A stretch of DNA of 64,000 bases from an uncultured bacterium (GCA_964617625.1 CAZTZL010000001.1:9783-73782), one strand, 5' to 3'; shown: positions 27,590 through 56,819, numbered from the stretch's first letter. A program made the numbers and translations. Notes: generated from the sequence alone by a model not told the origin.

Positions 27590-27594
27590 CGAAT

Positions 27595-32136: not shown

Positions 32137-32157
32137 AAATCCTAATGGAGTTTTGAA

Positions 32158-35760: not shown

Positions 35761-35763
35761 AAT

Positions 35764-36867
35764 ATGATTGGAAGGGAGCAGATCAATCAATTACTTGCAC
35801 ATGCAGTAAAGAATAACGCATCCGATATTCATTTATGTGAGGCCTATCCACCAATCGTCCGGATCGACGGCAAATTGGTTCCACTGAAAGGCAAAATCCT
35901 GACCAAACAGGATATGGAAGATATAATCGTTCAGCTGTTGGATGATTATCAAATGGAGAGATTCAGGAAAGATCTCGAAATTGATTTTGGATATGCCGTA
36001 CCCGGACTGGCTCATTTCAGAACAAATGCTTTTACAAAATTGGGAGGATTTGGCCTCGCTTTTCGAATTATTCCCGATCAAATACGAAGTTTGGAAGAGC
36101 TGGGTATGCCCGAAGGTGTGATTCGTCTTGCAAAGGAATTCGAGGGTCTTGTACTGGTTACCGGACCGACAGGGCACGGTAAATCAACGACTTTGGCCGG
36201 AATGATCAAGCTTATGAACGATGAACGTCATTCGCATATCATTACTGTAGAAGATCCTATTGAATATAGTTACAAACGCAAAAACTGTTTGATTCAACAA
36301 AGAGAATTGGGACATCATACAAGATCTTTTGCAGCTGCTTTAAAGAGTGCACTCAGGGAAGATCCTGATGTCATCCTGGTCGGAGAAATGAGAGATTTGG
36401 AAACAATATCGTTGGCACTCACCGCTGCAGAAACCGGGCATTTGGTTCTTTCCACATTGCATACAAGAGATGCTCCGGATACAGTGAATCGAATTATTGA
36501 TGTTTTTCCTGCGGGACAACAAGGGCAGGTTTTGGCACAAATTGCAGGTTCATTGCTGGGAGTGGTTTCACAACGATTGCTTCCTACTGCTTCTGGTTCT
36601 GGAAGAGTGGCTGCGGTTGAAGTTTTGTTGGCGAATTCGGCGGTTAGAAATCTTATTCGTGAGAAAAAGATACATCAAATTCCATCGATCATGCAAACAG
36701 CAACGACAGTGGGAATGCAGACAATGGATGACAGTCTTCTGCAATTGGTACGAGACAATAAAATAACGCGGCAAATTGCCATTAAATATGCTAAAGAACC
36801 CGAGAGATTCCTGCCAAAATTTAATACCGAAAATAAAAAACGTTTCGTAAAAAAAGAAACGATTTAA
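35764..36867 (+). CDS. pilT: Twitching motility retraction ATPase PilT
   Basis: 367 aa with no N-terminal T2SE_N domain. Walker A reads GPTGHGKSTT. The N-terminus is PilT-like (...DIHLCEAYPPIVRIDGKLVPL). Confidence 0.9.
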   Translation: MIGREQINQLLAHAVKNNASDIHLCEAYPPIVRIDGKLVPLKGKILTKQDMEDIIVQLLDDYQMERFRKDLEIDFGYAVPGLAHFRTNAFTKLGGFGLAFRIIPDQIRSLEELGMPEGVIRLAKEFEGLVLVTGPTGHGKSTTLAGMIKLMNDERHSHIITVEDPIEYSYKRKNCLIQQRELGHHTRSFAAALKSALREDPDVILVGEMRDLETISLALTAAETGHLVLSTLHTRDAPDTVNRIIDVFPAGQQGQVLAQIAGSLLGVVSQRLLPTASGSGRVAAVEVLLANSAVRNLIREKKIHQIPSIMQTATTVGMQTMDDSLLQLVRDNKITRQIAIKYAKEPERFLPKFNTENKKRFVKKETI

Positions 36868-42199: not shown

Positions 42200-42224
42200 A
42201 TCATAAATTCAATTTTGTCTGTTA

Positions 42225-42262
42225 AAGGCCCCGGAATTATTTATTTCGGGGCCTTTTCTTTG
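42225..42262 (+). terminator. Rho-independent terminator
   Basis: AAGGCCCCG-(loop gaattatttattt)-CGGGGCCTT is followed by TTCTTTG. Confidence 0.8.
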
Positions 42263-42411: not shown

Positions 42412-42804
42412 ATGGAGGACAAAATATTGTCAAAAATATTGATTGTGGATGATGATGGCGGCATCCGTATGCTGCTTTCCAAATTCCTGGAAAGAGAGGG
42501 ATTTGAAATTGTCGTGGCAGAGGATGGATTGGAAGGTGTTGAAATTGCGAAGAAGACGCAGCCTGATATCATCATTCTTGATGTTGTCATGCCCAGAATG
42601 GATGGCATCACAGCAGCCAGATTGATCAAGTTTTATAAACCACTTGCCGAGGTGCCTATTATTTTCCTGACTGCAAAAGACGCGGACAAAGAGATTGAAC
42701 TGGCGCAGGAAGCACGAGCCGAGGTTTATATTACAAAGCCCTTTGATGTCCATCAGGTGATCCATGTGGTCAAAGAAATTTTATCAACTTCTGCAAAAGT
42801 ATAG
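42412..42804 (+). CDS. Single-domain response regulator (CheY/PilG-like), paralog of the 19041 receiver
   Basis: Receiver motifs include ILIVDDDGG, the D in IILDVVMP and LTAKDA...K. Confidence 0.8.
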   Translation: MEDKILSKILIVDDDGGIRMLLSKFLEREGFEIVVAEDGLEGVEIAKKTQPDIIILDVVMPRMDGITAARLIKFYKPLAEVPIIFLTAKDADKEIELAQEARAEVYITKPFDVHQVIHVVKEILSTSAKV

Positions 42805-42893
42805 TAAATATTCACAAAATGTAACCATGCATGGATTTATGAAATTGAAATCATTCCCTGAATTTAATATAACTATATATATGGTGTAATTGT

Positions 42894-43442
42894 ATGAACA
42901 ATACCCAATCTTTTGTTGTATTTACTCTTGACAACCAAAAATTTGCCTTACATCTGGGAGCTGTTGAGAAAATTGCACAAGCCGCTGAAATTATTCCTTT
43001 GCCCAAGGCGCCGGAGATTGTGATGGGCGTTATCAACGTTCAGGGGCGTGTTGTACCTGTTGTGAACATCCGCAGACGATTTCAGCTGCCTGAACATGAC
43101 ATCAATGTTAAGGACCATTTCATTGTCTGTCGAACGAACCAAATAAATGTGGCCATCTTGGTGGATGCCGTTTTGGATATCATTGAATGTTCCGAAAAAG
43201 ATATTATTGAGAAGTCAAATATTTTGACCGATATAGAATATATCGAAGGTGTGGTCAAATCAGCGGACGGAATGATATTGATTCATGATCTAAATAAATT
43301 TCTGTCCAACAAGGAATCGAATATAATCAATGAAGTGATTAAAGACAGCGATAAACTGTTAAAAGCAAAAGAAATTTCAAAAAGTCAAACGAAACCAAAA
43401 ACATCTGAAAAAAAGAAAAAAGCATTAAAAAAACGGGATTGA
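42894..43442 (+). CDS. cheW: CheW-like coupling protein
   Basis: The CheW domain is recognisable (FVVFTLDNQKFALHLGAVEKI...VMGVINVQGRVVPVVNIRRRF). A Lys-rich tail follows. Confidence 0.8.
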   Translation: MNNTQSFVVFTLDNQKFALHLGAVEKIAQAAEIIPLPKAPEIVMGVINVQGRVVPVVNIRRRFQLPEHDINVKDHFIVCRTNQINVAILVDAVLDIIECSEKDIIEKSNILTDIEYIEGVVKSADGMILIHDLNKFLSNKESNIINEVIKDSDKLLKAKEISKSQTKPKTSEKKKKALKKRD

Positions 43443-43450
43443 GCTACAAC

Positions 43451-44986
43451 ATGAATAAAAGAATTCCGAACGCTCTTTTGTCAAAATTCAGCCGTTTTAT
43501 CAATCAGCAAATGGGCATCTATTTTCCAAAGAACAGGTGGCTGGATCTTCTCAGAGGTATTTCTTCTGCAGCTCGTGAATTCGGATTTGATGATGTTGAA
43601 GAATGTATTCAGTGGTTGATTTCTTCGCCGCTAAAAAAGAACCAGGTCGAGATTCTGGCATGTCACCTTACGGTCGGAGAGACCTATTTTTTCAGAGAAA
43701 CCAAAATAATCGAAGCAATGGAACAGTATGTTCTTCCTGAAATAATCAAATCACAAAGGCAGAATGGAAAGCGATTGCGGCTCTGGAGTGCGGGATGTTG
43801 TACAGGAGAAGAACCTTATACTCTGGCGATACTCCTTTCTCGAATGATTCCTGATATCAAGGACTGGAATATCACGATATTGGCTACCGATATCAATCCC
43901 TTGTTTTTACAGAAAGCGGCAGAAGGTGTCTATCGTGAATGGTCTTTCAGAGGCACTCCGTACTGGATAAAAGACACTTATTTTAAAAAGTTGGCTGACG
44001 GGAATTTTGAAATTCTACCCAACATTAAACGGATGGTAAAATTTTCCTATCTTAATTTGGTTGAAGATTTGTATCCGTCTATTTTTAGCGATACAAATGC
44101 AATGGATGTTATTTTCTGCCGTAATGTGCTAATGTATTTTTCTCCAGATATCGTGAAAAAGATTGTAGGTAAACTGCATGATGCACTGTTGGATGATCGA
44201 TGGCTTATCGTGGGTTCGAGCGAAACATCACAGTTCTATTTTCCCCAATATATTACTGTCAATTTCCCGGGAGCGATTCTATATAAGAAAATCGATAAAG
44301 AAATGAAAAAAAGCTCCCGAGTTGAAAACTATATTCCGAATATTTTCTCTGAAGATAATAAAAGCCAGATTGGCTTTCTAGATTCTAACATTCATTTTAT
44401 TCCGAATCCAGAATTGGAAACAAAAAACAAAGAAGATGAAGTAGAAAAGGAGAAGTGGCAAAATATCGAGGAAGCGGATCAATCTTTAACGCCAATAGAA
44501 GCGATAGAAATTTTATACCAATCCGGTGATTACAAAGGTACAATTCAAAAAATTGAAGAGAACATTGGTGATTATAATGAAAATCCGAAGGCAATGAAAT
44601 ATTTGGCAAAGGCCTGTGCAAATCAGGGAAATTTGAACGACGCTCTTGTCTGGTGCGAAAAGGCGATCATTCTGGATAAATTAAATCCTCAGTTTTATCA
44701 TCTTCGGGCAGCCATTCTTGAAGAACAGGGATTTATTGAAAAAGCACTGGGAGAATTGAAGAGGGCTTTGTATTTGGACCCCAATTTTGTGCTGGCGCAT
44801 TTTATGTTGGGCAACCTGACACGCAAGCAGGGGAATCTGCAGGAATCAAGAAAGTATTTTGAAAATGCACTGTCCATTTTAAAAACCCATGATCGTGAAG
44901 AAATATTGCCCGAATCCGAAGGAATGAATGCAGGAAGATTGATGGAGCTTATTCAGCTCTCCATGAATGGGGAGTTAAATGCATAA
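43451..44986 (+). CDS. cheR: Chemotaxis methyltransferase CheR fused to C-terminal TPR repeats
   Basis: The CheR SAM-methyltransferase core includes TVGETYFFRE, LRLWSAGCCTGEEPYTLA and FCRNVLMYF. A C-terminal ~150-aa TPR region follows. The track ORF starts at TTG 43439, overlapping the cheW stop. Confidence 0.85.
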   Translation: MNKRIPNALLSKFSRFINQQMGIYFPKNRWLDLLRGISSAAREFGFDDVEECIQWLISSPLKKNQVEILACHLTVGETYFFRETKIIEAMEQYVLPEIIKSQRQNGKRLRLWSAGCCTGEEPYTLAILLSRMIPDIKDWNITILATDINPLFLQKAAEGVYREWSFRGTPYWIKDTYFKKLADGNFEILPNIKRMVKFSYLNLVEDLYPSIFSDTNAMDVIFCRNVLMYFSPDIVKKIVGKLHDALLDDRWLIVGSSETSQFYFPQYITVNFPGAILYKKIDKEMKKSSRVENYIPNIFSEDNKSQIGFLDSNIHFIPNPELETKNKEDEVEKEKWQNIEEADQSLTPIEAIEILYQSGDYKGTIQKIEENIGDYNENPKAMKYLAKACANQGNLNDALVWCEKAIILDKLNPQFYHLRAAILEEQGFIEKALGELKRALYLDPNFVLAHFMLGNLTRKQGNLQESRKYFENALSILKTHDREEILPESEGMNAGRLMELIQLSMNGELNA

Positions 44987-45049
44987 TAGGAGCACGTATG
45001 GTTTTTTAAATTATTAAAATGAAGATGCAAATAAAGAGAGGGTTACGGT

Positions 45050-45580
45050 TTGGGTAAAAATGATAAGAAATTAACGATACTGAAAAATAGGGCCAGGGAA
45101 CTTTCTGAAGAACTGAAAGAGAACGGTGCGATTGAAAATCAGGTCGAGATCATAGAATTTGTTCTGGCATACGAAAAGTATGGCGTAGAATCCTGTTTTG
45201 TACGGGAAGTTTATCCGATGAAAGAGTTTACACCGATTCCTGGAACTCCGAATTTTGTCATGGGAATTATCAATATCAGGGGACAGATTATATCAATTAT
45301 TGACATAAAGAAATTCTTCGGATTACCGGAGAAAGGGTTGACAGATTTAAACCGTGTTATTATTGCTGATTATAATGACATGGAAGTGGGCATTTTGGCG
45401 GATATTATACTGGGTGTCCGCAATATTGCCATCAACGAGATCCAACCCTCTCTTCCCACATTAACAGAAATTCGTTCAAAATATCTGAAAGGAATTACGA
45501 GAGACGGAGTTGTCATTCTGGATATTGTGAAGCTATTGTCTGATCCGAAGCTGATTATTTCCAGTGAAGTGGAAATTTAG
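45050..45580 (+). CDS. cheW: CheW-like coupling protein (second copy)
   Basis: The CheW domain reads ...IEFVLAYEKYGVESCFVREVYPMKEFTPIPGTPNFVMGIINIRGQIISIIDI.... A TTG start is inferred. Confidence 0.75.
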   Translation: MGKNDKKLTILKNRARELSEELKENGAIENQVEIIEFVLAYEKYGVESCFVREVYPMKEFTPIPGTPNFVMGIINIRGQIISIIDIKKFFGLPEKGLTDLNRVIIADYNDMEVGILADIILGVRNIAINEIQPSLPTLTEIRSKYLKGITRDGVVILDIVKLLSDPKLIISSEVEI

Positions 45581-45637
45581 GAAAACAGGGATTACTGTAA
45601 AATTGAATTATATTGTAAAAAAAACGAAAGGTGAATC

Positions 45638-46081
45638 ATGAAAAAGCGCTCTTTTCTACTCGTATCAATAACCATTCTAATTGTCTTTATGATCAGTGAT
45701 GCACAGTTGAGCAGCAATTATAAAATCATTGTGCATTCATCGAATCCTGTTTCAAAAATTACACGCGATGACCTTTCAAAAATATTTCTGAAGAAGATAA
45801 AAATTTGGGAGGACGGAAATGAAATTCATCCGGTTGATCTTGTATACGATTCTCCGGTGCGGAAGGGATTTTCGAATGAAATTCATCACAGACCTGTATC
45901 CAAAATTAAAGCATATTGGCAAATGCAAATTTTCTCGGGTAAGGATGTTCCTCCGCCACAGCTTGATTATGAAGATGATGTGATGTCATTTGTAAAATCG
46001 GATCCAGGGGCAATCGGATATCTTTCCTCCGGTACATCCTTGAATCAGGGTCACATTAAAATTATATCAATTACAGAATAG
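45638..46081 (+). CDS. Small secreted PBP-like (PstS-type periplasmic-binding fold) protein, truncated single lobe
   Basis: 147 aa with a signal peptide. PBP_like_2-type motifs are present (KITRDDLSKIFLKKIKIWEDG ... AIGYLSSG). Confidence 0.5.
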   Translation: MKKRSFLLVSITILIVFMISDAQLSSNYKIIVHSSNPVSKITRDDLSKIFLKKIKIWEDGNEIHPVDLVYDSPVRKGFSNEIHHRPVSKIKAYWQMQIFSGKDVPPPQLDYEDDVMSFVKSDPGAIGYLSSGTSLNQGHIKIISITE

Positions 46082-46125
46082 TCTTTTGAGCCGTTTTCAT
46101 AACACAGTAAGGATTGGAGTCTGTT

Positions 46126-47733
46126 ATGTTAAGAAAATTGAAATTTCAGTATAAGATTTTTCTGATTCCCGGTCTTGCGATACTGGCATTTATTATCAGT
46201 TTGATAATAACCAGATCATACACAACGAGGAATGAGAAAGTAATCGGCCAGATTGTGAATGGCTATGCGCCTGCCTGGGAATTGAATCGTGATTTGGTAG
46301 AATTTTTGGATTTTATCCAGCGAGATATGCAGGACGCAGTGATTTCGCAGGATGAAGAAAAATTGGTTGAAACAGAAAATTATCGAAACCGGTTTCTTGC
46401 GAGGATAGAAAGTGAAAAAGATAATTTTGTCTTCATTACAGATGAACTTGATGTACTGATCAGGGACTTCAAAGAGTATTACACATTTTCCAAGAAAGTT
46501 TCCCTGAGTATGATTAAAGGTACTTCTGATGAACAGATATTACATGATGCGGATACGATGAGAGAGATGGGAAAAGTGATCAGAGATAAACTGGATCAAA
46601 ATATTATCCGTAATAAAAACAATATGTCTGCCGCTCTTTCTATCGCGAGACAAAACAACAGGATGATGTTGATAACCAGTATTATAACAATCATTGTTTT
46701 TATCTTTTTACTTTGTGCTTTAACATTTCTTATTGTTGCATCGATTTCAGGTCCTTTAAATTCCGCCATTCAAATTGCAGGACAAGTGGCAAACGGAGAT
46801 CTCACTGTTGAAGTCCCGGATAACGACTCCAAAGATGAAGCAGGCACATTGCTGCGGACATTTCAGAAAATGGTAAAAAATCTGCGTAGTTTGACAATTC
46901 AAATAAAAGAAGGCGCCAATGCACTTGCTTCTGCGGCCAGTGAAATTTCGGCTTCTGTGACACAGATTGCAGCAGGCGCGACACAAACTGCAACTGCAGC
47001 GAATCAGACAAGTGCCACAGTTGAGGAAGTTAGGCAGACTGCTCAGGATTCAAACCGGAAAGCAAAACATGTTTCTGAGAGTTCGCAAAAAGCGGTTCAG
47101 ATATCACAGGCAGGAGAAAAGGCTGTTACTGAAACGATCAATGGAATGCACAGAATCCAGTCTCAAATGGAATCCATTGCTGAAAGCATTATGAAGCTCA
47201 GTGAGCACGGACAGGCGATAGGAGGCATTATCGCAACGGTGGAAGATGTCGCCGAACAATCCAACCTGCTGGCGGTGAATGCTTCGATAGAAGCAGCCAA
47301 GGCAGGAGAACAGGGTAAAGGGTTTGCCGTAGTTGCCCAGGAAGTCAAGAATCTGGCGGAACAATCACGGCAGTCCACATCCAGGGTCAGAAATATTTTG
47401 GATGATATTCAGAAAGCAACTGGCGGTTCGGTCATGACAACCGAACAGGGGAGCAAAGCAGTAGAAGCCGGAGTCAAGCAATCCATGGAAGCCGGTGAAT
47501 CCATTCAGCGGCTGGCAAACAGTGTAGCGGAAGCGGCACAGGCGACAACCCAGATTGCGGTTTCAAGTCAGGAGCAGCTTGTCGGCATGGATCAGATGGT
47601 TTCGGCCATGGAAAGCATCAAGCAGGCCAGTACACAGAATGTGGCGGCGACAAAGCAGGTTGAAACAGCAGCCCGTGACCTTGGAGAGCTGGGACAAAAA
47701 TTGAAAAATATTGTTGAACAATATAAGGTGTAG
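46126..47733 (+). CDS. Methyl-accepting chemotaxis protein
   Basis: Two TM helices bracket a ~150-aa periplasmic region. A HAMP domain ([16 protein letters not shown]) and a methyl-accepting signalling domain with the highly conserved hairpin (...[37 protein letters not shown]...) follow. The track ORF starts at TTG 46114. Confidence 0.9.
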
Positions 47734-47818
47734 CCAAGTCTATATCGGTGTACTGATGCTTCGATCGGAGTGAATAGGATTACAAATTTAATATTAAAAA
47801 ATATACTGGAGAATTGAA

Positions 47819-48247
47819 ATGAATCAGTCAGACAATGATTTCTTTAGGGAGTTGATCTCGGTATTCAAATTGGAATCTGAAGAGCATATCCAGATGATCA
47901 AAAAGGGGCTGGATGAGTTTGAAAGCGATTCGCCAGAGGGTGCCGCTCTGGATGATATTCTTGAGCGTGTACATCGTGCGGCTCACAGTTTGAAAGGGGC
48001 AGCCCGCACCATTGGTCTTACTGATATAGAACCTGTTTGCCAGGCAATGGAAAGTGTTTTCAGTGTTTATAAAAGAAAAAAAATCGCACCTGCTTCAGAG
48101 ATTATTGTGCTTATGCAGCAGGCTGTGGATCAATTAGGCAAGATTTTGTTGTCAATTAACGAAGAGGGACAAGTATCGGGAGATAAAAGCGGGCTGGTCC
48201 GTCTCATGGATGAAATGAATAAACAACTCTCTGTAATGAGTGAATAG
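47819..48247 (+). CDS. Stand-alone Hpt (histidine phosphotransfer) protein, paralog of CheA P1
   Basis: 142 aa. The Hpt motif HRAAHSLKGAARTIGL is present. The N-terminus MNQSDNDFFRELISVFKLESEEHI closely parallels the N-terminus of the downstream CheA. Confidence 0.8.
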   Translation: MNQSDNDFFRELISVFKLESEEHIQMIKKGLDEFESDSPEGAALDDILERVHRAAHSLKGAARTIGLTDIEPVCQAMESVFSVYKRKKIAPASEIIVLMQQAVDQLGKILLSINEEGQVSGDKSGLVRLMDEMNKQLSVMSE

Positions 48248-48292
48248 AATTTTTAATATCATGTGCGTTATACCGATAGTTTTGGAGCAAAG

Positions 48293-50683
48293 ATGCAATT
48301 AAAAGAAGATGATTTCTATCGAGAACTTCTGTCGATGTTTAAAATCGAAGCGGAAGAACATATAAAGAATATGTCTTCCGGATTGCTTGATCTTGAAAAA
48401 ATTACGGATCAGAAAGAAAAGGCTGGAATTATTGAAACAGTTTATCGGGAGGCGCACAGTCTAAAAGGAGCGGCCAGAGCTGTCAATATCAATGATATAG
48501 AATCTCTTTGTCAAGTTCTGGAAAGTATATTTGCAAAACTGAAGCATCAAAATATGGTATTATCGCCTCAATTATTCGATGTTATGCATCGTGCAGTGGA
48601 TACACTTAACGATCTGATTACAGATCCGGATAAAACCGATATTAAGGAAATATTAAAGAAACTCATAAAATTGGAAGATGGGGGAACAGTAGAGAAAGAA
48701 AAAAAGGAAGAAAACCAGCAGGAAAAATCTGAAAATGTGACCAATATAGAAAAGACAAAACCGGTTGAATCAGCCAATGAATTGGATGAACATAGTGAAG
48801 AAGTTGCTATAGAGAAATCCGAAGAAAAAATAGAAGAAAAAATAGAAGAAAAAGAAAAAACACCCGACAGAAAAGTATCGGCAGAGCAGGACAAGTCTTT
48901 ATTGTCGGATACGGTCCGGATTTCTACTAAAAAACTGGATTCGCTTCTTCTTGAAGCTGAAGAAATGTTGGCCGTCAAATTAACTGCGAGACAGTATTCC
49001 ACTGATTTACGGGAATTGGTTTCGACCTTTGATACATGGAAAAAAGTGTGGGAGGGGCAATATCCCGATATCAAACTGGCAAAACAGTTTTTGGAAAAGA
49101 TTGAGAAAGAGGGTGAAGACGGCAAAACAGGATCCTCTTTTTATCAGCTGATTGAATTTCTTTACTGGAACAGCGAATATATTAAATCGCTCGAAACACG
49201 GATCGTCAATCTTTCCAAATTGGCAGAGGGAAATGCTTACTTGCTCAGCGGGATGGTGGATAACTTGCTTGAGGACATGAAATCGGTTCTTATGCTTCCC
49301 TTTTCGACGCTTTTGAAAATATTCCCCAAGATGGTGCGGGATATTTCACGTGATCAGGAAAAAAATGTGGATTTGTTGATAAGAGGAAGTACGATTGAAG
49401 TGGATAGACGCATTTTGGAAGAACTCAAAGATCCTTTTATTCATTTGATTCGAAATTGCATTGATCATGGAATTGAAAAACCCGATGTACGGAAAAAAAT
49501 CAAGAAATCTTCGGTCGCGACTATTTCAATTGGTGTTTCTGAGTTGAGCGGCAACAAAGTCGAAATTATTATTTCTGATGACGGCGGTGGAATCGATTTG
49601 GAAAGAGTGACACAGGTTGCCGTTAAAAAGGGGATCATTAAAAAAGAAGAAGCCGGGAGATTATCCGAACAGGAAAAATTAGCTCTCATTTTTCAATCGG
49701 ATGTTTCAACAAGTCCAATCATTACGGAAATGTCCGGAAGAGGATTGGGTATGGCGATTGTCCGTGAGAAGATTGAAAAATTGGGTGGTATGATTACACT
49801 TGAAACAGAGCTTCATGTCGGAACGACTTTCAGAATTACTTTGCCCGTTACTCTTGCTACATTTCGAGGTATTTTGGTTCAGGCAGGAGAACAAATGTAC
49901 GTTGTACCGACATCGAGTGTGGAACGTGTTGTTCGCGTCGAAAAAAATGATATTAAAACTGTGGAAAATCGAGAGACAATCAAAGTAGATGATCAGGTGC
50001 TGTCCTTTGTGCAACTCGCAGATATTCTAAGACTGGGAAACACAAGAGGCAGACGTAATTTTGAATTTATAAACGCGTTGATCTTGGAAGTGGCTGACAG
50101 AAAAATTTCTTTTGGGGTCGATCGCGTCATCAATGAACAGGAAGTTTTGGTCAAAGATCTTGGACGACAACTCACAAGGGTGCCCAATGTTGCAGGAGCA
50201 ACAATTTTGGGGTCGGGCAAGGTTGTTACAATTTTAAATGTATCTGATTTGATGAAATCAGCTATCAGACTTGCTATCGATTCGACAAAGGCCACCTTAA
50301 CGGAGGAAGGTACAGTGAAAACAAAATCGATTTTAATTGCCGAAGATTCCATTACGTCAAGAACCCTGTTGAAAAATATCTTAGAATCAGCAGGATATAA
50401 GGTTAGGACAACAGTGGATGGTGTTGATGCTTATACTGCATTGAAGTCCGATAATTACGACTTGGTGGTTTCGGATATTGAAATGCCCAGGATGAATGGT
50501 TTCGAGCTTGTTTCGAAGATAAGGGGCGACAAAGATGTGGCTGAACTGCCTGTCGTTTTGGTAACCGCCCTTGAATCGAAAGAGGACCGTGAAAAGGGAA
50601 TCGATGTAGGTGCGAATGCCTACATTGTAAAAAGGAGTTTTGACCAAAGCAATTTGCTCGACGTGATTCAGAAGCTCATATAG
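48293..50683 (+). CDS. cheA: Chemotaxis histidine kinase CheA with C-terminal receiver domain (CheA-REC hybrid; ChpA/FrzE-like)
   Basis: The domains are P1 Hpt (HSLKGAARAVNI), an acidic/Lys-rich linker, P3/P4 HATPase (IRNCIDHGIE; SDDGGGIDL; GRGLGMAIV), P5 CheW-like and a C-terminal REC (ILIAEDS...VVSDIEMP). The ATG at 48293 has SD ggag 5 nt upstream. The track ORF starts at GTG 48263. Confidence 0.9.
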   Translation: MQLKEDDFYRELLSMFKIEAEEHIKNMSSGLLDLEKITDQKEKAGIIETVYREAHSLKGAARAVNINDIESLCQVLESIFAKLKHQNMVLSPQLFDVMHRAVDTLNDLITDPDKTDIKEILKKLIKLEDGGTVEKEKKEENQQEKSENVTNIEKTKPVESANELDEHSEEVAIEKSEEKIEEKIEEKEKTPDRKVSAEQDKSLLSDTVRISTKKLDSLLLEAEEMLAVKLTARQYSTDLRELVSTFDTWKKVWEGQYPDIKLAKQFLEKIEKEGEDGKTGSSFYQLIEFLYWNSEYIKSLETRIVNLSKLAEGNAYLLSGMVDNLLEDMKSVLMLPFSTLLKIFPKMVRDISRDQEKNVDLLIRGSTIEVDRRILEELKDPFIHLIRNCIDHGIEKPDVRKKIKKSSVATISIGVSELSGNKVEIIISDDGGGIDLERVTQVAVKKGIIKKEEAGRLSEQEKLALIFQSDVSTSPIITEMSGRGLGMAIVREKIEKLGGMITLETELHVGTTFRITLPVTLATFRGILVQAGEQMYVVPTSSVERVVRVEKNDIKTVENRETIKVDDQVLSFVQLADILRLGNTRGRRNFEFINALILEVADRKISFGVDRVINEQEVLVKDLGRQLTRVPNVAGATILGSGKVVTILNVSDLMKSAIRLAIDSTKATLTEEGTVKTKSILIAEDSITSRTLLKNILESAGYKVRTTVDGVDAYTALKSDNYDLVVSDIEMPRMNGFELVSKIRGDKDVAELPVVLVTALESKEDREKGIDVGANAYIVKRSFDQSNLLDVIQKLI

Positions 50684-50702
50684 CTCTCTGGGGAAAATAA
50701 TA

Positions 50703-51758
50703 ATGATTAAAGTATTGATTACAGAAGATTCACCGGTTGTCCGCGGATATTTAAAGCACATTTTGGATTCCGATCCGGATATACAGGTTGTTGGGACGGC
50801 AAAAGACGGAGAAGAGGCAGTTCGTATGGCTCCGGTCAGTAAACCGGACGTCATTACAATGGATATTCATATGCCCAAAATGGACGGTTTTGAGGCGACT
50901 CGTAAAATTATGGAAACCAGTCCGATTCCGATTGTGATTGTCAGTGCAAGCTGGAATCCTGAAGAAGTGGATAAAACATTCCGCACGATGGAAGCGGGGG
51001 CCGTAGCGGCCCTTGAAAAACCCAGGGGAATGGGACACGCTGATTCTGAATCGTCCGTTAAGGAGCTGATTCAAACTGTAAAATTGATGTCCGATGTCAA
51101 AGTAGTAAGAAGATGGAGTCCAAAGGCAAAGGCGGATAAAAGTGAAAAATGTAAGATAAAACCTGTAGAGGAATCTCTTCGAAAGGATTTGGATATTCAA
51201 ATTGTGGCCGTTGGTGCTTCTACGGGCGGTCCCGTTGTTCTGCAACAAATTCTATCAGGATTGCCGAGTCAGTTTAAAGTTCCGATTGTTATTGTCCAGC
51301 ACATCGCACCTGGTTTTTTGCCTGGTCTTGCAGATTGGCTTACCAAGACAACCAATTTTTCCGTTACAATTGCGAAAAAAGGAGAAAAATTAAAACCAGG
51401 AATGGCATATTTGGCCCCTGACGGATTTCAAATGGCCATTGACAGTAAATTCCATGTTCAGTTGGATGAAGAAGCGCCGGAATACCATTTGTGTCCGTCT
51501 GTTTCCTATCTCTTTCGATCTGTCGCTCATATTTATGGTAAAAGGGCTATAGGCGTGCTGTTAACCGGCATGGGAAAAGATGGGGCCAGTGAATTAAAAA
51601 TGATGAATGATAAAGGAGCCATTACGATTGCACAGGATAAAGAGAGCTCGGTTATTCATGGGATGCCCGGCGAAGCAATCAAATTGGGGGCAGCTTCGTA
51701 TGTGCTTTCAACGACTCAGATTCCAGAGAAATTGATAGAACTTGTGCCGATCAATTAA
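50703..51758 (+). CDS. cheB: Chemotaxis methylesterase CheB (REC + methylesterase)
   Basis: The N-terminal REC reads VLITEDSPVVRG...ITMDIHMP. The C-terminal CheB methylesterase reads IVAVGASTGGP ... HGMPGEA. Confidence 0.9.
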   Translation: MIKVLITEDSPVVRGYLKHILDSDPDIQVVGTAKDGEEAVRMAPVSKPDVITMDIHMPKMDGFEATRKIMETSPIPIVIVSASWNPEEVDKTFRTMEAGAVAALEKPRGMGHADSESSVKELIQTVKLMSDVKVVRRWSPKAKADKSEKCKIKPVEESLRKDLDIQIVAVGASTGGPVVLQQILSGLPSQFKVPIVIVQHIAPGFLPGLADWLTKTTNFSVTIAKKGEKLKPGMAYLAPDGFQMAIDSKFHVQLDEEAPEYHLCPSVSYLFRSVAHIYGKRAIGVLLTGMGKDGASELKMMNDKGAITIAQDKESSVIHGMPGEAIKLGAASYVLSTTQIPEKLIELVPIN

Positions 51759-51808
51759 TAAATGAATGGCCATAACTATTCTGATTTATAAAAAAGGAAG
51801 TGAAAATC

Positions 51809-54800
51809 GTGGAAAGGCAGAGAAAAAACATCAATATTGGAATTGAAATTCTGGTGGTCGAGGATAGCCCGACTCAGGCGATGCATCTTAAATATACGCT
51901 CGAGCAGCACGATTACCACGTGATCATCGCCAAAGACGGAAAAGATGCGCTTTTGCAGATGAAAACCCGTAAACCCACAATTGTGATAAGCGATATTATT
52001 ATGCCGGAAATGGACGGATACGAACTCTGCCGTCAAATCCGTTCCGATGAAAATCTGAAATATATTCCGGTGATTTTACTGACCCAGTTAGTCGATCCCA
52101 GAGATGTCATTCGCGGGCTTTTGAGCGGCGCGGATAATTTTGTGACAAAACCATATAGTGAGCAATTTCTCATTTCGAGAATTCAATACATTCTGGCCAA
52201 TCAGGAACTGAGAAGAAATGCCATAACAGAGATGGGGATCGAAATCTTTTTTGCGGGCCAGAAACATTTTATTACATCGGACAGGATGCAGATTCTGGAT
52301 CTTCTTTTCTCGACGTTTGAAAACGCAGTTCAGCGAAATCAGGAATTGGAACAGGCGAACAAAGAACTTCGGAACGCGCTTGAAACAATCGAGACGATCA
52401 ATGAAGTATCCGAAAAGTTGAACCGGTCTTTGATGCCTGCGGACGTTGCCGAAGCGGTGGCAGTGGGAATCAAAAAATTGATCGATTACGATGACTGTAC
52501 GATCTACCGAATCAGCGACGAAGAGCAATATCTTGTCCCTGTGTATTTTGGGAAAAGCAAAATAGAGGATGACAAGGATGTTCAGATCGATCGCCTTAAA
52601 CTTGAAGTAGGGGAAGGAATTACTGGTTATGTTTTTGCCAAAGGCAAAGCCGAGATGATCAGCGATGTTTCCAAACATCCAAAAGTAAGTTATCCCGACG
52701 GTACTGTGCCTCCCAAAGAATCCATACTTGCCGTCCCACTGCAGTACGAAAACCAAACAAAGGGTGTTATCACGCTTCTGAAAAAGGGATTGCATCAGTT
52801 TGCAGATGCCCATTTACGCATACTGACAATACTGGCAGGTCAGGCTGCTGTTGCAATGGAAAATGCCCGTCTCATGCAGGAGGAAAGAAGAAGAACTTCC
52901 CAGCTTTCATTGATCAATGAAATCTCCATGAAAACCGCATCTACTCTGGATATCGAGGAATTGTGCCGTATTGTGGTTGATTCGGTTCGCAGCGGTTTTG
53001 GATATGCCCATATTATTTTAATGTTAATGGACGAAGAAGCTGGAGATTTGTTTCTCCAGGTTCAATCCGGACCTTATTCGGAATCCTATACTGACAATTT
53101 CCGGCAGAAACTGAATGAGGGACTGATTGGAAAAGCAGTGACGACCGGAGAGACTGTCGTACAGGGAAGAGCTTCAGAAAATCCAGACTACGTGCCTGTT
53201 AATTCCGAAATACAATCGGAACTGGCGATTCCAATCAAAAAAGGCCAGAAACTGTTGGGTGTTCTGGATATGGTCAGCAATAAAATCCGCGCTTTTGACG
53301 AAATTGATATTGCCATGATGAAAACACTGGCGGATCAGGTTGCGATGGGAATCGAAAATGCCAGACTATACGAGAGTGAAAAGAAAAGCAAGGAACTTGC
53401 CCAGGCGGCAAGCCGGGCCAAGAGTGAGTTTCTGGCAAACATGAGTCATGAAATACGTACGCCGATGAACAGTATCATCGGATTCTCGGACCTGCTTATT
53501 CAGGAACATCTTCCAGAAGAATTGGGAGATTTTGTCCGCACAATTAAAATGAATGGTGAAGAACTTCTTCATATCATCAATCAGATTCTCGATCTGGCTA
53601 AAGTGGAAACAGGTCGAATGGAAGTGGAGTGCATTGAATTCGATCTTCAGAAGTTGACCAAAGATATCTATCAGTTGATGCGTCCGCGCGTTCTCGATAA
53701 AGGGCTGGCATTTAAAGTCGTTTCCAATCCAGAACCGTTGCCGTTAATTGACAGTGACCGGACCAAGATTCGTCAGATTCTTGTCAATCTGATCGGGAAT
53801 GCAGTGAAATTTACCGAGGAAGGTCAGATTCAGCTTGAAATCAATATCGAAAAGACAAAAGGCGCAAAAGGCATATTAAACGCTTGCGTCAGTGATACGG
53901 GGATTGGCATTCCTCCTGAAAAAAGAACACATATCTTCGAAGCATTCACCCAGGCCGATGCATCCATGACAAGAAGATTCGGAGGAACGGGACTCGGTTT
54001 GACGCTCTGTAAAAAAATGATCGAACTGCTTGACGGGAAATTATGGGTCGAATCTGAAGAAAAAAAGGGGAGTAAATTTTCTTTCTCGATCCCGGTAAAA
54101 ATTCTTACCCAGAAAGAAAAAGAAACTTACGAACCTGAAGAGGTTATTTCAGATGAAAATCGATCTACGTTGGATTCAGTCAATTCGATAATTAAAAACA
54201 GGCCTGTCTCTGTGGAATGGGGACCAGGGGGCAAGAAAAAACGGTCTCCGCTCGTTCTTCTGATTGAAGACAATGCCAGCACGGTGGATTTGCTGAGACG
54301 GTATCTGGAAAAGGACGGATATCAGGTTCAATGCAGCACGAATGGTGAAGATGGTGTCATGAAGGCAAAATTCTATCGGCCGGATGCCATTGTTCTGGAA
54401 ATTCTGCTTCCGGGAAAGATGGATGGATGGGAAGTCTTGCGGATGTTAAAGTCGAGCAAGCTGACGAAAGATATTCCTGTTATTGTGTGTTCGGTTCTTT
54501 CGAATCAGAAGAAGGCATTCAGCCTCGGAGCCGTGGAATATTTTGAGAAACCGGCAAGAGAGAAGGCCATACTTGACACATTGCACCGGTCCATAGGAAT
54601 GCCCACAGACAAGAAGAAAGAGATACTGGTTGTTGATGATGACAAGAGTGTCCTTATGCTTTTTGAAAAACTTCTTAACCAGCAGGGATTTAAAGTTAAA
54701 ACATTCGACAGCGGACTTGCTGTTATCGACTATTTGAAGGAAGACAGAAATATCGCATTGATGATTCTGGATCTATTGATGCCGGATATAGATGGTTTTG

Positions 54801-55693
54801 AAGTTCTGGAAACATTAAAAAGATCAAAGAAAACCAAAGACATTCCAGTCGTCATTTATACAGGCAAAAAATTGACTTCAAAGGATCGTTCAAGGCTGAG
54901 TTCGCGTTACGAATTACTGCTTCAGAAAACTCGTGAAACGCCGGATACTTTATTGAAACAGTTGAACAGCCTGGTCAATAAGAAAATCGAAGTTGAACAA
55001 AAGGCACTTCCGAAATCCCGAGGGGAAATTCTTCTTGCAGAAGATGATCCGTCCGGACAAAAACTAATGAAACATTTATTGAACCGCATGGGGTATCAGG
55101 CAGATCTGGCTTCGACCGGCAAGCAGGTTTTGGACAAACTTCAGAAGAAAGACTATCATGTCGTATTGATGGACATGGAAATGCCGGAGATGGATGGTTT
55201 TACTGCAACACGAGAAATCAGGAAAGAGAATCGATATCAAGATCTTCCTATTATTGCATTGACCGCCCATGCAATGAAAGAACATAAAGAAAAAACACTC
55301 AATGCAGGCTGTACGGATTATCTGTCCAAGCCGGTCAACAGCACAAAACTCGAAAAAATGTTGGAAAAATATATGCCGCCGGTTCCTGTTGAAAAAACGG
55401 AGACAGTCCAGCAGAGCAAAGAGGAAGATGAGATGATGGCTGAACTGGCGAAATTTTTCGTTTCTGATCTGGGACAACGTATTCAACAGTTTGATTTGGA
55501 CGTGACCAGTCGAAATAAGGATGAGGTTGTCCGATTTGGGCATTCCTTAAAAGGTACAGCCGGATCTTATGGATTTCCAAAATTTTCGAATATCGGAAGC
55601 CACATCGAAAAGGAAGGCATGGCAGAACATTGGGAAAAAATAACTGTTTTACAAAAGCAGTTAATTGATGAATATAAACTTCTGGGACAATAA
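51809..55693 (+). CDS. Multidomain hybrid sensor histidine kinase: REC-GAF-GAF-HisKA-HATPase-REC-REC-REC-Hpt
   Basis: REC1 carries the D in [12 protein letters not shown]. Two GAF-like domains follow (e.g. ...[19 protein letters not shown]...; ...[24 protein letters not shown]...). The HisKA H-box is [21 protein letters not shown], and the HATPase has [37 protein letters not shown]. Three further receivers carry the D residues ...[11 protein letters not shown], ...[10 protein letters not shown] and ...[11 protein letters not shown]. The C-terminal Hpt reads [15 protein letters not shown]. The GTG start at 51809 has SD aggaag 8 nt upstream. The track ORF starts at GTG 51800. Confidence 0.85.
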
Positions 55694-55694
55694 G

Positions 55695-56819
55695 ATGAAA
55701 CCGGAAAATATGACTATTTTGACTGTGGATGATACACCGGCCAATATTCGCTTGTTGACACATTATCTGGAAAAACAGGGATACCATGTGATCACGGCTG
55801 AAGACGGTTTTGAAGGATTCAAGGCAGCTATTCTTTATCATCCTGATCTGGTTCTTCTGGACATTATGATGCCGGGTACAGATGGATACGAAGTCTGTGA
55901 ATTACTCAAAGCGGAAGAGGAGACCAAAGATATTCCAGTCGTATTTCTGACAGCAAAAACCGATGTCGAAGATAAAATTCGCGGTTTTGAACTGGGAGCA
56001 GTTGATTATATTACCAAACCTTTTAATTTGGTTGAAATATCAACACGTGTTCAAACACAGCTTCATTATAAACATCTTCAGGGTCAGACACAGCGCTTCT
56101 ATCAAATATTTTCTCAAACGAAGAATATTGCCAACACGGACATTTCGTTCAATCTAACAGAAAAAAAACTAAATATTATTCTTGATGATGCACGGAAAAA
56201 TTTGAAAAAAATTGAAAAAAATGATACCGATGGGTCACTGGTTAAAAAAGAATATGAAAAGACACTTCACGATATTAAAAACGTTGTTAATTTTATCCAC
56301 TCGGAAAAGCCATTTTGGGATGATATGGAACATCCGTTCGATTCAATTAATCTAAACATGCTGATGGAAGATATTGTTGATATTCTGCAGAATCAGGATG
56401 ATGGTCCTATATGGGACATTGAATGTACAAGGCTTGACCGGCCGGCTGTCATATCGGGAAATCTTGCCAAACTTCAATTCGGACTGCTTAATTTTTTCAC
56501 ACATGAAATCAATACCGATATGCAACCCTGTACGGTTGAAATTGCTTTAAAGGATATCGAATTACCGGAATCTATTCTTCAGAAAACAGATTATAAAACG
56601 GATGAAAATTTTTACTGTCTGGATATTATTTCCAAACATATACATGCGAAACAGGATGATCTCCAAGACGATCCAAATATTTTGTCAGGGAAAGGGAATA
56701 AATCAAGTCTCCCAATAATCAATCTTCAATCTGTGATCCAGATGCACAATGGTCTGTTCGATATCAAAACGGAAGAGGGTGACAAAACGAAAGTTTCGAT
56801 CTATCTACCCAAAGCCTGA
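55695..56819 (+). CDS. Response-regulator receiver fused to a degenerate histidine-kinase-like domain
   Basis: The REC reads ILTVDDTPANIRL...LLDIMMPGTDG...LTAKTD...K. The C-terminal ~230 aa carry an H-box-like HDIKNVVNF and an HATPase-like end (...GDKTKVSIYLPKA), but no clear G1/G2 ATP-binding boxes. The ATG at 55695 lies directly after the upstream stop. Confidence 0.6.
   Translation: MKPENMTILTVDDTPANIRLLTHYLEKQGYHVITAEDGFEGFKAAILYHPDLVLLDIMMPGTDGYEVCELLKAEEETKDIPVVFLTAKTDVEDKIRGFELGAVDYITKPFNLVEISTRVQTQLHYKHLQGQTQRFYQIFSQTKNIANTDISFNLTEKKLNIILDDARKNLKKIEKNDTDGSLVKKEYEKTLHDIKNVVNFIHSEKPFWDDMEHPFDSINLNMLMEDIVDILQNQDDGPIWDIECTRLDRPAVISGNLAKLQFGLLNFFTHEINTDMQPCTVEIALKDIELPESILQKTDYKTDENFYCLDIISKHIHAKQDDLQDDPNILSGKGNKSSLPIINLQSVIQMHNGLFDIKTEEGDKTKVSIYLPKA

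What the first reader, a model, noticed from the sequence alone, without database searches (positions are those of the whole stretch)
42412..56819. Pil-Chp-like chemosensory locus with an unusually elaborate phosphorelay appended
The gene order REC, CheW, CheR, CheW, MCP, CheA-REC, CheB mirrors the Pseudomonas pilGHIJK-chpABC logic. Only about 5.5 kb downstream of the T4P locus lies a single MCP. The extras are a CheR with a TPR tail, a truncated PBP-like secreted protein, a separate Hpt protein, and directly downstream a 1294-aa hybrid kinase (REC-GAF-GAF-HK-REC-REC-REC-Hpt). The locus ends with a receiver fused to a degenerate kinase domain. Together these give at least 8 receiver domains and 3 Hpt domains across ~14 kb. 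That suggests a multi-input phosphorelay, with the GAF domains as possible small-molecule sensors, feeding pilus-based motility or surface behaviour.
Basis: partly seen in the sequence, partly recalled or inferred. Interest (0 to 1): 0.75.

Follow-up and report, generated by a model that had tools for sequence, protein, structure and literature searches.

The report
ACF-class chemosensory operon with phosphorelay
This is an 11-gene chemotaxis-like signalling operon of the widespread non-motility (ACF) class. Its receptor-kinase complex probably drives a second, receiver-controlled kinase rather than a motor, so it is an elaborate lineage-specific version of a known design and not a pilus (Pil-Chp) system.

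Summary
There are 8 receiver folds and 3 Hpt domains. One receiver is a conserved pseudo-receiver with Glu at the acceptor site.

The Pil-Chp (Tfp-class) reading is not supported. The CheA belongs to a very large family (575 relatives in named genomes). Nearly all members share the order CheW, CheR-TPR, CheW, MCP, CheA-REC, CheB, REC-output. A 47%-identical member from Chthoniobacter flavus is classed ACF in a published table of MiST-based CheA classes. CheR-TPR together with REC-kinase regulators is the published ACF hallmark.

A REC-kinase directly after cheB is the rule in this family (48 of 65 loci), not an oddity. The closest characterised analogue is Rhodospirillum centenum Che3, where CheA3 phosphorylates a receiver of the kinase CheS3.

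Three things are specific to one CheA clade (13 distinct loci including the window). They are a leading REC, a split-off Hpt, and a ~1300-aa REC-GAF-GAF-HK-REC(E)-REC-REC-Hpt kinase followed by a REC-pseudokinase.

The type IV pilus neighbourhood is conserved inside that clade but absent in one member and in 78 of 80 other loci. A strong terminator separates the operon from upstream genes. Pilus control remains possible but unproven.

The parts
42224..42262 (+). Intrinsic terminator after the upstream transglutaminase-like gene. It insulates the che operon from upstream transcription.
   Evidence: 14-bp G+C-rich stem followed by UUUUCUUU. Minimum free energy is -23.1 kcal/mol and z = -5.4 against shuffles.
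42412..42804 (+). Single-domain receiver (REC1, 130 aa), the CheY3-like candidate.
   Evidence: Pfam Response_reg, E 3.9e-28. DD, D, T and K are all present. It is 69% conserved among orthologues. Its closest paralogue in the window is the REC next to pilB, at 42% identity.
42894..43442 (+). CheW coupling protein a.
   Evidence: Pfam CheW, E 1.7e-30.
43439..44986 (+). CheR methyltransferase with a C-terminal TPR domain.
   Evidence: Pfam CheR, E 5e-50, plus several TPR families at residues ~359-483. CheW, CheR-TPR and CheW lie upstream of cheA in 38 of 39 related loci that have enough upstream sequence.
45050..45580 (+). CheW coupling protein b.
   Evidence: Pfam CheW, E 1e-30.
45638..46081 (+). 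Small secreted protein resembling a single lobe of PstS (147 aa). Possible periplasmic co-sensor for the MCP.
   Evidence: Partial PBP_like_2 match to profile positions 96-192 of 267. N-terminal hydrophobic segment. Large family of ~145-155-aa proteins. Among clade members it is present only in the window, L008 and L010.
46114..47733 (+). The only MCP in the locus. It has two transmembrane helices, a ~145-aa periplasmic domain, HAMP, and a 40-heptad signalling domain.
   Evidence: Pfam HAMP and MCPsignal. TM segments at 9-36 and 181-219. Hairpin-tip Glu399 has 141 residues on the N-arm and 140 on the C-arm. The signalling domain is 77% conserved and the periplasmic domain only 28%.
47819..48247 (+). 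Stand-alone Hpt protein (142 aa), similar to CheA P1 (its best NCBIfam matches are to the N-termini of CheA models).
   Evidence: Pfam Hpt, E 1.3e-15. The HSLKGAAR His motif is visible in the sequence. It is a separate gene in every clade locus that covers this position.
48293..50683 (+). CheA-REC hybrid kinase: P1 Hpt, acidic linker, long helical region where an extended P3 would sit (no Pfam H-kinase_dim hit), P4, P5 and REC. No P2 domain.
   Evidence: Pfam Hpt, HATPase_c, CheW and Response_reg. The 796-aa form is identical to P0001. It is 47% identical over its full length to the C. flavus CheA that is classed ACF.
50703..51758 (+). CheB methylesterase with an N-terminal REC.
   Evidence: Pfam CheB_methylest, E 9e-60, and Response_reg. 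It passes the NCBIfam CheB cut-off.
51800..55693 (+). Soluble hybrid histidine kinase with the order REC, coiled coil, GAF, GAF, DHp(H550), CA, pseudo-REC(E867), REC, REC, Hpt(H1248).
   Evidence: Pfam. No TM segment. H-box, acceptor residues and Hpt His are invariant in 10 orthologues, and Glu at 867 is invariant. These are the most conserved parts of the locus: RECa 83%, linker 93%, DHp 87%.
55695..56819 (+). REC fused to a degenerate DHp-CA module (pseudokinase), 374 aa. Probable terminal acceptor or output.
   Evidence: Pfam finds REC only. The AF2 model has an HK-like fold and the best Foldseek hit is LvrB 8vc9. The REC is 86% conserved and the C-terminal 250 aa only 14-16%. Some homologues keep a Pfam HATPase_c hit, and one keeps an H-box remnant GVAHRFN.
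18166..36867 (+). Neighbouring type IV pilus locus. It is not shown to be part of the system. Genes: PilD, REC (19041-19511, overlapping the pilB start), PilB with MshEN domain, PilC, pilins, PilM, PilO, a 1300-aa Ig-repeat protein, secretin and PilT.
   Evidence: Pfam. The secretin-pilT-trxB block is conserved upstream of the che block in L001, L003, L007 and L026, but not in L015.

Best explanation
This is an ACF-class ('alternative cellular function') chemosensory operon. It is built like the Wsp and Che3 systems and transcribed as one 11-gene unit.

Proposed mechanism:
1. A single transmembrane 40H receptor, two CheW proteins and a CheA-REC hybrid kinase form the sensory core. In this subclade a small secreted PstS-lobe-like protein may assist the receptor.
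2. CheR-TPR and CheB provide methylation-based adaptation.
3. CheA does not talk to a motor. Its phosphoryl groups go to the N-terminal receiver of the soluble 1297-aa hybrid kinase encoded right after cheB. The route is from P1, possibly also through the separate Hpt.
4. Phosphorylation of that receiver switches the kinase through its almost invariant coiled-coil linker. The two GAF domains add a second, cytoplasmic input.
5. The kinase autophosphorylates on His550 and relays through one of its C-terminal receivers and its own Hpt (His1248). The acceptor is the near-invariant receiver of the last gene product, a REC-pseudokinase. The single-domain REC1 may be an acceptor as well.
6. These receivers act by protein-protein contact on an unknown target.

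Shown here: the gene and domain content, residue conservation, operon structure, family membership and clade distribution. Inferred: the direction of every phosphotransfer step and the output.
For: Components:
- All components are present and catalytic or acceptor residues are intact, except one conserved pseudo-receiver.
- Gaps are tight and a terminator lies upstream.

Family and class:
- CheW, CheR-TPR, CheW, MCP, CheA-REC, CheB is conserved across many phyla. A REC-kinase follows cheB in 48 of 65 loci and REC-GGDEF in 6.
- The C. flavus homologue is classed ACF in a published table of MiST-based classes, and a Methanoperedens species also has an ACF-classed CheA.
- CheR-TPR clusters typically hold REC-kinase regulators and were assigned to ACF (PMC3447774).

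Precedent and architecture:
- In R. centenum Che3, which has the same parts list including a pseudo-receiver, CheA3 phosphorylates REC1 of CheS3 and CheS3 phosphorylates CheY3 (PMC3868531).
- The big kinase has no membrane or extracytoplasmic sensor. It starts with a REC, so it needs a phosphodonor.
- Its REC, linker and DHp are the most conserved parts of the locus.
- REC-controlled kinases switch through such a linker (LvrB, PMC13269768).

Co-occurrence:
- The Che genes, the kinase and the REC-pseudokinase occur together wherever the contig reaches, in the 13 distinct clade loci (window, L001/L002, L003, L004, L007, L008, L009, L010, L015, L026, L062, L088). L009 ends inside the kinase gene.
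- About 28 further contigs share the same longest-contig length in both the CheA and the REC-pseudokinase hit lists.
Against: - No phosphotransfer was measured. CheA could instead use REC1, its own REC or CheB as its main acceptors, with the kinase acting in parallel.
- The class assignment is by homology to classified proteins, not by running the MiST class models.
- The output is unknown. Neither terminal receiver carries a recognisable effector domain.
- Conserved linkage to a pilus locus within the clade hints at a motility-related output that the ACF label does not predict.
Confidence: 0.7

Rival explanations
1. One reading: a Pil-Chp-like (Tfp-class) system in which the receptor-CheA complex controls type IV pilus extension and retraction through single-domain receivers, with the extra kinase as an add-on.
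For: - The operon starts 5.5 kb downstream of pilT, and this linkage is kept in L001, L003, L007 and L026.
- The first gene is a single-domain REC, as pilG is in Pil-Chp. Its closest paralogue in the window is the REC that overlaps the pilB start (42%).
- Distant relatives of the che cluster sit next to PilB-type ATPases. These are L005 (Binatia), with a REC-MshEN-ATPase fusion directly upstream; L006, with an ATPase and PilX downstream; and L071.
- An extra Hpt recalls the multi-Hpt ChpA.
Against: - The nearest classified homologue is ACF, not Tfp.
- CheR-TPR and REC-kinase are ACF hallmarks.
- Only one single-domain REC is present.
- L015 has the whole block without pilus genes.
- 78 of 80 genome loci of the family have no pilus genes within 10 kb.
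- The pilus-adjacent loci are scattered in the CheA tree.
- A terminator and unrelated redox genes lie in between.
Confidence: 0.15
2. Two independent systems share an operon: a self-contained Che module with REC1 as its output, and a separate GAF-sensing phosphorelay (hybrid kinase to REC-pseudokinase), with no phosphate flow between them.
For: The kinase has its own potential sensors (two GAF domains) and a complete HK-REC-Hpt-REC relay. The Che module has its own single-domain REC.
Against: - A REC-kinase sits directly after cheB in 74% of loci of this CheA family across many phyla.
- The association is kept in every clade locus that reaches that far.
- The N-terminal REC with acceptor Asp65 is invariant and among the best conserved segments. 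It would have no donor under this model.
- The Che3 precedent shows cross-phosphorylation.
Confidence: 0.1
3. A flagellar chemotaxis (F-class) system.
For: The core Che parts (MCP, CheW, CheA, CheR, CheB and a small REC) are all present.
Against: - There are no flagellar genes and no CheZ, CheC, CheX, CheD or CheV homologues among the window genes scanned.
- The CheA lacks P2 and carries a REC.
- The family is classed ACF.
- The cluster has CheR-TPR and a single dedicated MCP.
Confidence: 0.02

Closest known systems
Rhodospirillum centenum Che3 cascade (CheA3, CheS3, CheY3), ACF class
   Same: The parts list is the same: a single-domain REC, two CheW, CheR, one MCP, a CheA-REC hybrid, CheB and a second, soluble REC-controlled kinase that includes a pseudo-receiver. 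In Che3, CheA3 phosphorylates REC1 of CheS3 and CheS3 phosphorylates CheY3 (PMC3868531).
   Different: - The second kinase here is far larger, with the order REC-GAF-GAF-HisKA/HATPase-REC(E)-REC-REC-Hpt. CheS3 is REC-REC(A)-PAS-HWE kinase.
- The pseudo-receiver here carries Glu and lies after the kinase core.
- There is an extra stand-alone Hpt and an extra terminal REC-pseudokinase.
- The organism is an uncultured bacterium, not an alphaproteobacterium.
- The biological output is unknown here (cyst formation in R. centenum).
Pseudomonas Wsp system (WspA-F, WspR), ACF class
   Same: One dedicated MCP, two CheW, CheR with TPR (WspC), CheA-REC (WspE), CheB (WspF), and a multidomain REC output encoded right after cheB (PMC3447774; gene names from my own knowledge).
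   Different: - The output here is a REC-kinase relay, not REC-GGDEF. No GGDEF or EAL domain is in the operon. Related loci such as L017, L043 and L047 do carry REC-GGDEF.
- The MCP gene lies after the second cheW rather than first.
Pseudomonas aeruginosa Pil-Chp system (Tfp class)
   Same: CheA with a C-terminal REC and no P2, more than one Hpt in the pathway, a leading single-domain REC, CheR and CheB present, a 40H-type receptor, and genomic proximity to pilus genes.
   Different: - The CheA family is classed ACF, not Tfp.
- There is one single-domain REC instead of PilG plus PilH.
- The CheR has a TPR tail.
- There are two Hpt in total, versus nine Hpt domains in ChpA (eight previously reported plus one newly identified; PMC10782961).
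- A large REC-kinase follows cheB.
REC-controlled histidine kinases (LvrB of Leptospira) and the pseudokinase RetS
   Same: The last gene product has the REC, helical hairpin and CA-like architecture and the size (~375 aa) of LvrB, its best structural match (8vc9, E 1.7e-19). RetS kinase-region structures also match. The big kinase is also REC-controlled through a helical linker.
   Different: The window protein lacks the phospho-acceptor His and the G1 and G2 ATP-binding boxes, so it cannot work as a kinase. Whether it acts RetS-like, by pairing with another kinase's DHp, is speculation.

Membership tests
ACF-class chemosensory system (MiST / Wuichet-Zhulin classification) | The CheA core (P3-P4-P5) groups with ACF-class CheAs. 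| tested here: met
   This is an indirect test. L052 (Chthoniobacter flavus Ellin428) is 47% identical over residues 1-795. [quoted passage not shown] That matches the entry 'cheaACF ... CFE428DRAFT_RS31585 754' in Table S2 of PMC10782961. A Methanoperedens species (not the ones in L019/L024) is also listed cheaACF. The stored table is cut after the ACF rows, so the match rests on length and architecture.
ACF-class chemosensory system (MiST / Wuichet-Zhulin classification) | Assignment by the official MiST class-specific HMMs. | not testable with these tools
The original classification paper (PMC3401578) is not held.
ACF-class chemosensory system (MiST / Wuichet-Zhulin classification) | A multidomain response regulator (REC fused to HK, GGDEF and so on) in the cluster, and CheR fused to TPR. 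| tested here: met
   CheR-TPR is at 43439-44986. REC-GAF-GAF-HK... is at 51800-55693 and REC-pseudoHK at 55695-56819. The criterion is taken from PMC3447774.
Tfp-class system (Pil-Chp) | CheA of the Tfp class. | tested here: not met
   The nearest classified homologue is ACF. No Tfp reference sequence could be obtained for a direct comparison.
Tfp-class system (Pil-Chp) | CheA with multiple Hpt domains plus a C-terminal REC. | tested here: inconclusive
   The CheA has one Hpt and a REC, and a second Hpt is a separate gene. Multi-Hpt CheAs occur in both the Tfp and ACF classes (PMC10782961), so this feature does not discriminate.
Tfp-class system (Pil-Chp) | Functional or genomic coupling to type IV pilus genes. 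| tested here: inconclusive
   The linkage (5.5 kb) is conserved in 5 clade loci, absent in L015 and rare in the wider family. A terminator lies in between. The function is not testable here.
Flagellar F-class chemotaxis system | F-class CheA (usually with P2 and no REC), CheY-P phosphatase or CheV/CheD auxiliaries, and flagellar genes. | tested here: not met
   No P2 domain is detected and a C-terminal REC is present. No such auxiliaries or flagellar genes were found among the window ORFs scanned. The rest of the genome was not seen.
Che3-type cascade (CheA phosphorylates a REC-controlled second kinase) | Phosphotransfer from CheA to the receiver of the second kinase. | not testable with these tools
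   Only the architecture is matched. Biochemistry is required.
REC-controlled histidine kinase (LvrB type), applied to the last gene | REC, DHp and CA fold. | tested here: met
   AF2 model with pLDDT 78. Foldseek hit to 8vc9 with E 1.7e-19 over ~393 columns.
REC-controlled histidine kinase (LvrB type), applied to the last gene | Phospho-acceptor His in the DHp and intact N, G1 and G2 ATP-binding boxes. | tested here: not met
   There is no conserved His. DxGxG and GxGxG are absent in the window copy. Pfam HATPase_c is not detected. It is therefore filed as a pseudokinase.
Wsp system | REC-GGDEF output (WspR). | tested here: not met
   No GGDEF domain is in the operon. It is present in some related loci.

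The most novel reading that the evidence does not exclude
In this uncultured, probably KSB1-related lineage, an ACF-class chemosensory array has been recruited to control the neighbouring type IV pilus machine. The near-invariant receiver of the REC-pseudokinase, and/or REC1, would act as a CheY-like diffusible regulator of the REC-PilB/PilT motor. The 1300-aa GAF kinase would be a gate that integrates a cytoplasmic signal. That would be a second, independent evolutionary route to chemosensory pilus control, distinct from Pil-Chp.
Probability: 0.15. Interest if true: 0.6.

Novelty: new variant of a known kind. Interest (0 to 1): 0.33.

Why it matters
ACF-class chemosensory systems are common in genomes, yet only a handful have been studied (Wsp, R. 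centenum Che3, a few in Myxococcus).

This locus shows how far the 'CheA feeds a second kinase' design can be elaborated. It has seven phosphorylatable receivers, one conserved pseudo-receiver, three Hpt domains and a terminal pseudokinase. In this clade, the second kinase and the terminal receiver are more conserved than the Che core. That points to them as the real decision-making hub.

The analysis also corrects a tempting mis-annotation: proximity to pilus genes does not make a system Pil-Chp. For annotation pipelines, the family-wide pattern is a usable rule. A REC-kinase follows cheB in about three quarters of loci.

The practical impact is limited because the organism is uncultured and the output is unknown.

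Tried and rejected
- Looking up the window's own contig by exact protein (CheA in two start variants) failed. The PilT look-up gave only short JGI contigs with no taxonomy. Cluster look-ups gave no organism names. The source organism therefore stays 'uncultured bacterium'. One 55%-identical orthologue is named candidate division KSB1.
- The original classification paper (PMC3401578) is not held.
- NCBIfam has no class-specific Che models, and all hits were generic and below cut-offs, except the two generic CheB models, which CheB passes.
- A PDB sequence search of REC1 gave generic receivers, with no PilG, PilH or CheY preference.
- The metagenome scan with the REC-pseudokinase alignment was wasted. 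The patterns chosen were generic REC motifs, and only one hit (L088) was a true relative.
- The GAF region gave no diagnostic ligand-type match in the PDB, so the GAF ligand is unknown.
- Consensus promoter and terminator scans were at background level and missed the real terminator, which was found by reading the sequence.
- Rfam found no riboswitch or other RNA in the locus.
- I first noted the PBP-like gene as window-unique, then corrected this, because it is also present in L008 and L010.
- I considered a frameshift as the origin of the separate Hpt and rejected it. The gene is separate in every clade locus that covers this position.


Full report
**Observation**

The region 42412-56819 holds eleven same-strand genes with gaps of -4 to 89 nt. 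Pfam assigns them as follows:

| Coordinates | Product |
|---|---|
| 42412-42804 | REC |
| 42894-43442 | CheW |
| 43439-44986 | CheR plus TPR |
| 45050-45580 | CheW |
| 45638-46081 | partial PBP_like_2 match |
| 46114-47733 | MCP (HAMP plus MCPsignal) |
| 47819-48247 | Hpt |
| 48263/48293-50683 | CheA (Hpt-HATPase-CheW-REC) |
| 50703-51758 | CheB |
| 51800-55693 | REC-GAF-GAF-HisKA-HATPase-REC-REC-REC-Hpt |
| 55665/55695-56819 | REC plus about 250 residues without a Pfam hit |

The upstream type IV pilus locus is also real. It comprises PilD, a REC gene whose end overlaps the pilB start, PilB with an MshEN domain, PilC, four pilin-like genes, PilM, PilO, secretin and PilT (18166-36867). It ends 5.5 kb before the operon. 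The intervening genes encode TrxB, ArsR, thioredoxin, AhpC/TSA, OsmC, a thioredoxin-like protein and a transglutaminase-like protein.

**Residue-level anatomy**

- An alignment of the window's nine REC domains with E. coli CheY shows the acidic pair, acceptor Asp, Thr/Ser and Lys in all but one. The first receiver after the kinase core has Glu at the acceptor position. That Glu is invariant in all ten orthologues, as are the H-box His550, the other acceptor Asp residues and the Hpt His1248.
- The CheA and Hpt proteins carry the HSLKGAAR motif. CheA and the big kinase have intact N, G1 and G2 boxes (sequence).
- The MCP has two transmembrane segments (9-36 and 181-219). It has exactly 141 and 140 residues on either side of the hairpin-tip Glu399, which makes it a 40-heptad receptor. 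This fits its gap-free match to the NCBIfam CtpM model and its ~30-residue excess over the E. coli receptor models.
- The big kinase and the last protein have no membrane segments.

**The last gene**

A 27-sequence alignment (A1) shows a nearly invariant receiver followed by about 250 very divergent residues. It has no conserved His and no DxGxG or GxGxG motif. Some homologues still score for Pfam HATPase_c. One keeps an H-box-like GVAHRFN.

AlphaFold2 on this alignment gives pLDDT 78. The model has a REC, a long helical hairpin and an alpha/beta domain. Foldseek's best matches are the six chains of LvrB, a REC-controlled histidine kinase of the same size (E about 1e-19). Classical kinases and RetS follow. 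The protein descends from a REC-controlled kinase and has lost its catalytic motifs.

**What family this is**

The CheA has more than 7000 database relatives. Loci encoding CheAs 52-59% identical repeat the whole arrangement. These are L001/L002, L003, L004 and L007.

A scan of one genome per species with a CheA alignment found 575 relatives and kept 80 loci. I annotated these with my own ORF calls and phmmer/HMM seeds taken from the window. The results were:

- CheW, CheR-TPR and CheW precede cheA in 38 of 39 loci with enough upstream sequence.
- The gene directly after cheB is a REC-kinase in 48 of 65 interpretable loci. It is REC-GGDEF in 6 and REC plus something else in 11.
- The hosts span Desulfobacterota, Burkholderiales, Verrucomicrobiota, Acidobacteriota, Nitrospirota, Planctomycetota, Ignavibacteria, Spirochaetota, Riflebacteria and even Methanoperedens and ANME-2 archaea.

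This is the Wsp/Che3 type of cluster.

**Class assignment**

- The Chthoniobacter flavus Ellin428 locus (L052) has 47% identity over the full length. Its CheA ORF is 754 aa from its first Met. Table S2 of Berry et al. [quoted passage not shown]
- A Methanoperedens CheA with this architecture is also 'cheaACF'.
- Munoz-Martinez et al. 2012 showed that CheR-TPR genes lie predominantly in clusters with multidomain regulators, about 40% of which carry a kinase module. They assigned these clusters to the ACF family.

I could not run the MiST class models or obtain a Tfp reference sequence. The assignment is therefore by homology and hallmark features, not by the official test.

**How it probably works**

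The best characterised analogue is R. centenum Che3, which has a CheY3, two CheW, CheR, one MCP, CheA3-REC, CheB and CheS3. CheS3 is a soluble kinase with a REC, a pseudo-REC, PAS and a kinase core. There, CheA3 phosphorylates REC1 of CheS3, and only CheS3 phosphorylates CheY3.

The window kinase likewise begins with a receiver and has no other obvious upstream input apart from its GAF domains. Its N-terminal REC (83%), the following coiled coil (93%) and the DHp (87%) are the most conserved segments of the whole locus among nine orthologues. They are above CheA P4 (67%) and the neighbouring PilT (69%). The LvrB structures show that receiver phosphorylation switches such kinases through exactly this kind of helical linker.

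I therefore propose this chain: receptor array, then CheA (P1, possibly also the split-off Hpt), then kinase REC(D65). This is followed by kinase autophosphorylation at H550, gated by the GAF pair. The phosphoryl group then passes to a C-terminal REC, then to Hpt(H1248), then to the receiver of the REC-pseudokinase. REC1 is a possible additional acceptor by analogy with CheY3. CheB and the CheA receiver serve adaptation and sink roles.

All transfer steps are inferred. The GAF ligand is unknown. So is the output. The terminal receiver is 86% conserved while its C-terminal domain is only 14-16% conserved. This suggests that the receiver surface itself is the business end.

**What is lineage-specific**

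In a neighbour-joining tree of 88 CheAs, all loci with the window-type arrangement form one clade. That arrangement is a leading REC, a separate Hpt, a ~1300-aa REC-GAF-GAF-HK-REC3-Hpt kinase and a REC-pseudokinase. With L088 from the metagenome scan there are 13 distinct loci including the window.

The small PBP-like gene occurs only in the window, L008 and L010. It is not a truncation, because a full-library search finds 1527 cluster representatives at E<=1e-10, mostly 141-160 aa long. It matches the second lobe of PstS-type proteins.

**The pilus question**

For a link:
- The secretin-pilT-trxB block lies upstream of the che block in the window, L001, L003, L007 and L026, while the downstream genes differ.
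- REC1 and the pilB-adjacent REC are each other's closest paralogues in the window (42%).
- Three unrelated members of the wider family sit beside PilB-type ATPases. One is a REC-MshEN-ATPase fusion directly upstream in a Binatia genome.

Against a link:
- The class is ACF.
- L015 carries the complete block next to a restriction-modification methylase and an MrfA-type helicase.
- Only 2 of the 80 genome loci have pilus genes within 10 kb.
- The pilus-adjacent loci are scattered in the tree.
- A 14-bp G+C-rich hairpin with a U-tract (42224-42262, -23 kcal/mol, z -5.4) terminates transcription just upstream of the operon.

I rate a pilus output as possible (about 15%) but not indicated.

**Verdict**

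The Pil-Chp interpretation is not supported. The locus is an ACF-class, Che3/Wsp-like chemosensory operon whose appended REC-kinase is typical of its family. Its particular multi-receiver relay and terminal pseudokinase are a clade-specific elaboration. This makes it a new variant of a known kind, of moderate-to-low interest.

Noticed in passing
window 19041-19511 and 19504-21282; L005 4524-6785: A 156-aa receiver gene overlaps the start of pilB by 8 nt, and PilB carries an MshEN domain. In a Binatia genome a REC is fused to an MshEN-type ATPase (43% identical ATPase core) and sits directly upstream of a related che cluster. This suggests phosphorylation control of the pilus extension ATPase.
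   Followed up: partly
window 51800-55693, residue ~867 of the kinase: The first receiver after the kinase core has Glu in place of the phospho-acceptor Asp. This Glu is invariant in all ten orthologues, so it is a conserved pseudo-receiver, perhaps a permanent 'on' mimic.
   Followed up: yes
window 55695-56819: There is an extreme conservation contrast within one protein. The receiver is 86% identical among orthologues, with more than 60 invariant columns. The C-terminal ~250 residues are 14-16% identical, yet still predicted to keep a kinase-like fold.
   Followed up: partly
window 45638-46081: The 'truncated' PBP-like protein belongs to a large family of stand-alone ~145-155-aa secreted proteins resembling one lobe of PstS (1527 cluster representatives at E<=1e-10; some tandem duplicates of 270-290 aa). 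Its function and usual genomic context were not examined.
   Followed up: partly
window 42224-42262: A strong intrinsic terminator (14-bp stem, U-tract) lies after the transglutaminase-like gene. The consensus terminator scan missed it.
   Followed up: yes
L014, L019, L024: ANME-2 and Methanoperedens archaea carry CheA homologues 50-52% identical to the window's, in the same CheW, CheR-TPR, CheW, MCP, CheA-REC, CheB order. This implies transfer of this ACF cluster type between bacteria and archaea.
   Followed up: no
window 36954-40337; L001, L003, L004, L007, L010, L026: A redox gene set (TrxB, ArsR-family regulator, thioredoxin, often OsmC and a thioredoxin-like protein) is conserved between pilT and the che operon across the clade. 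Its relation to either neighbour is unknown.
   Followed up: no
window 28234-32136 and 12866-18256: Two giant Ig-repeat proteins flank or sit inside the pilus locus. One is 1300 aa with eight Big_1/invasin-type repeats, between pilO and the secretin gene. The other is 1796 aa with Big_5, fn3 and a C-terminal FlgD_ig-like domain, just upstream of pilD. They may be adhesins or pilus-associated surface proteins.
   Followed up: no
window 56820-56982 and 60787-60859: No TPP riboswitch reached the Rfam gathering score in the 163-nt leader of thiC. The only Rfam hit in the window is a tRNA at 60787-60859.
   Followed up: partly
L010 1992-3134; window 12866-18256: A Por_Secre_tail (type IX secretion sorting) domain in a relative, and FlgD_ig-type C-termini, hint that the lineage belongs to the FCB-group phyla. 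This is consistent with the KSB1 name on one orthologue. Taxonomy was not resolved.
   Followed up: no
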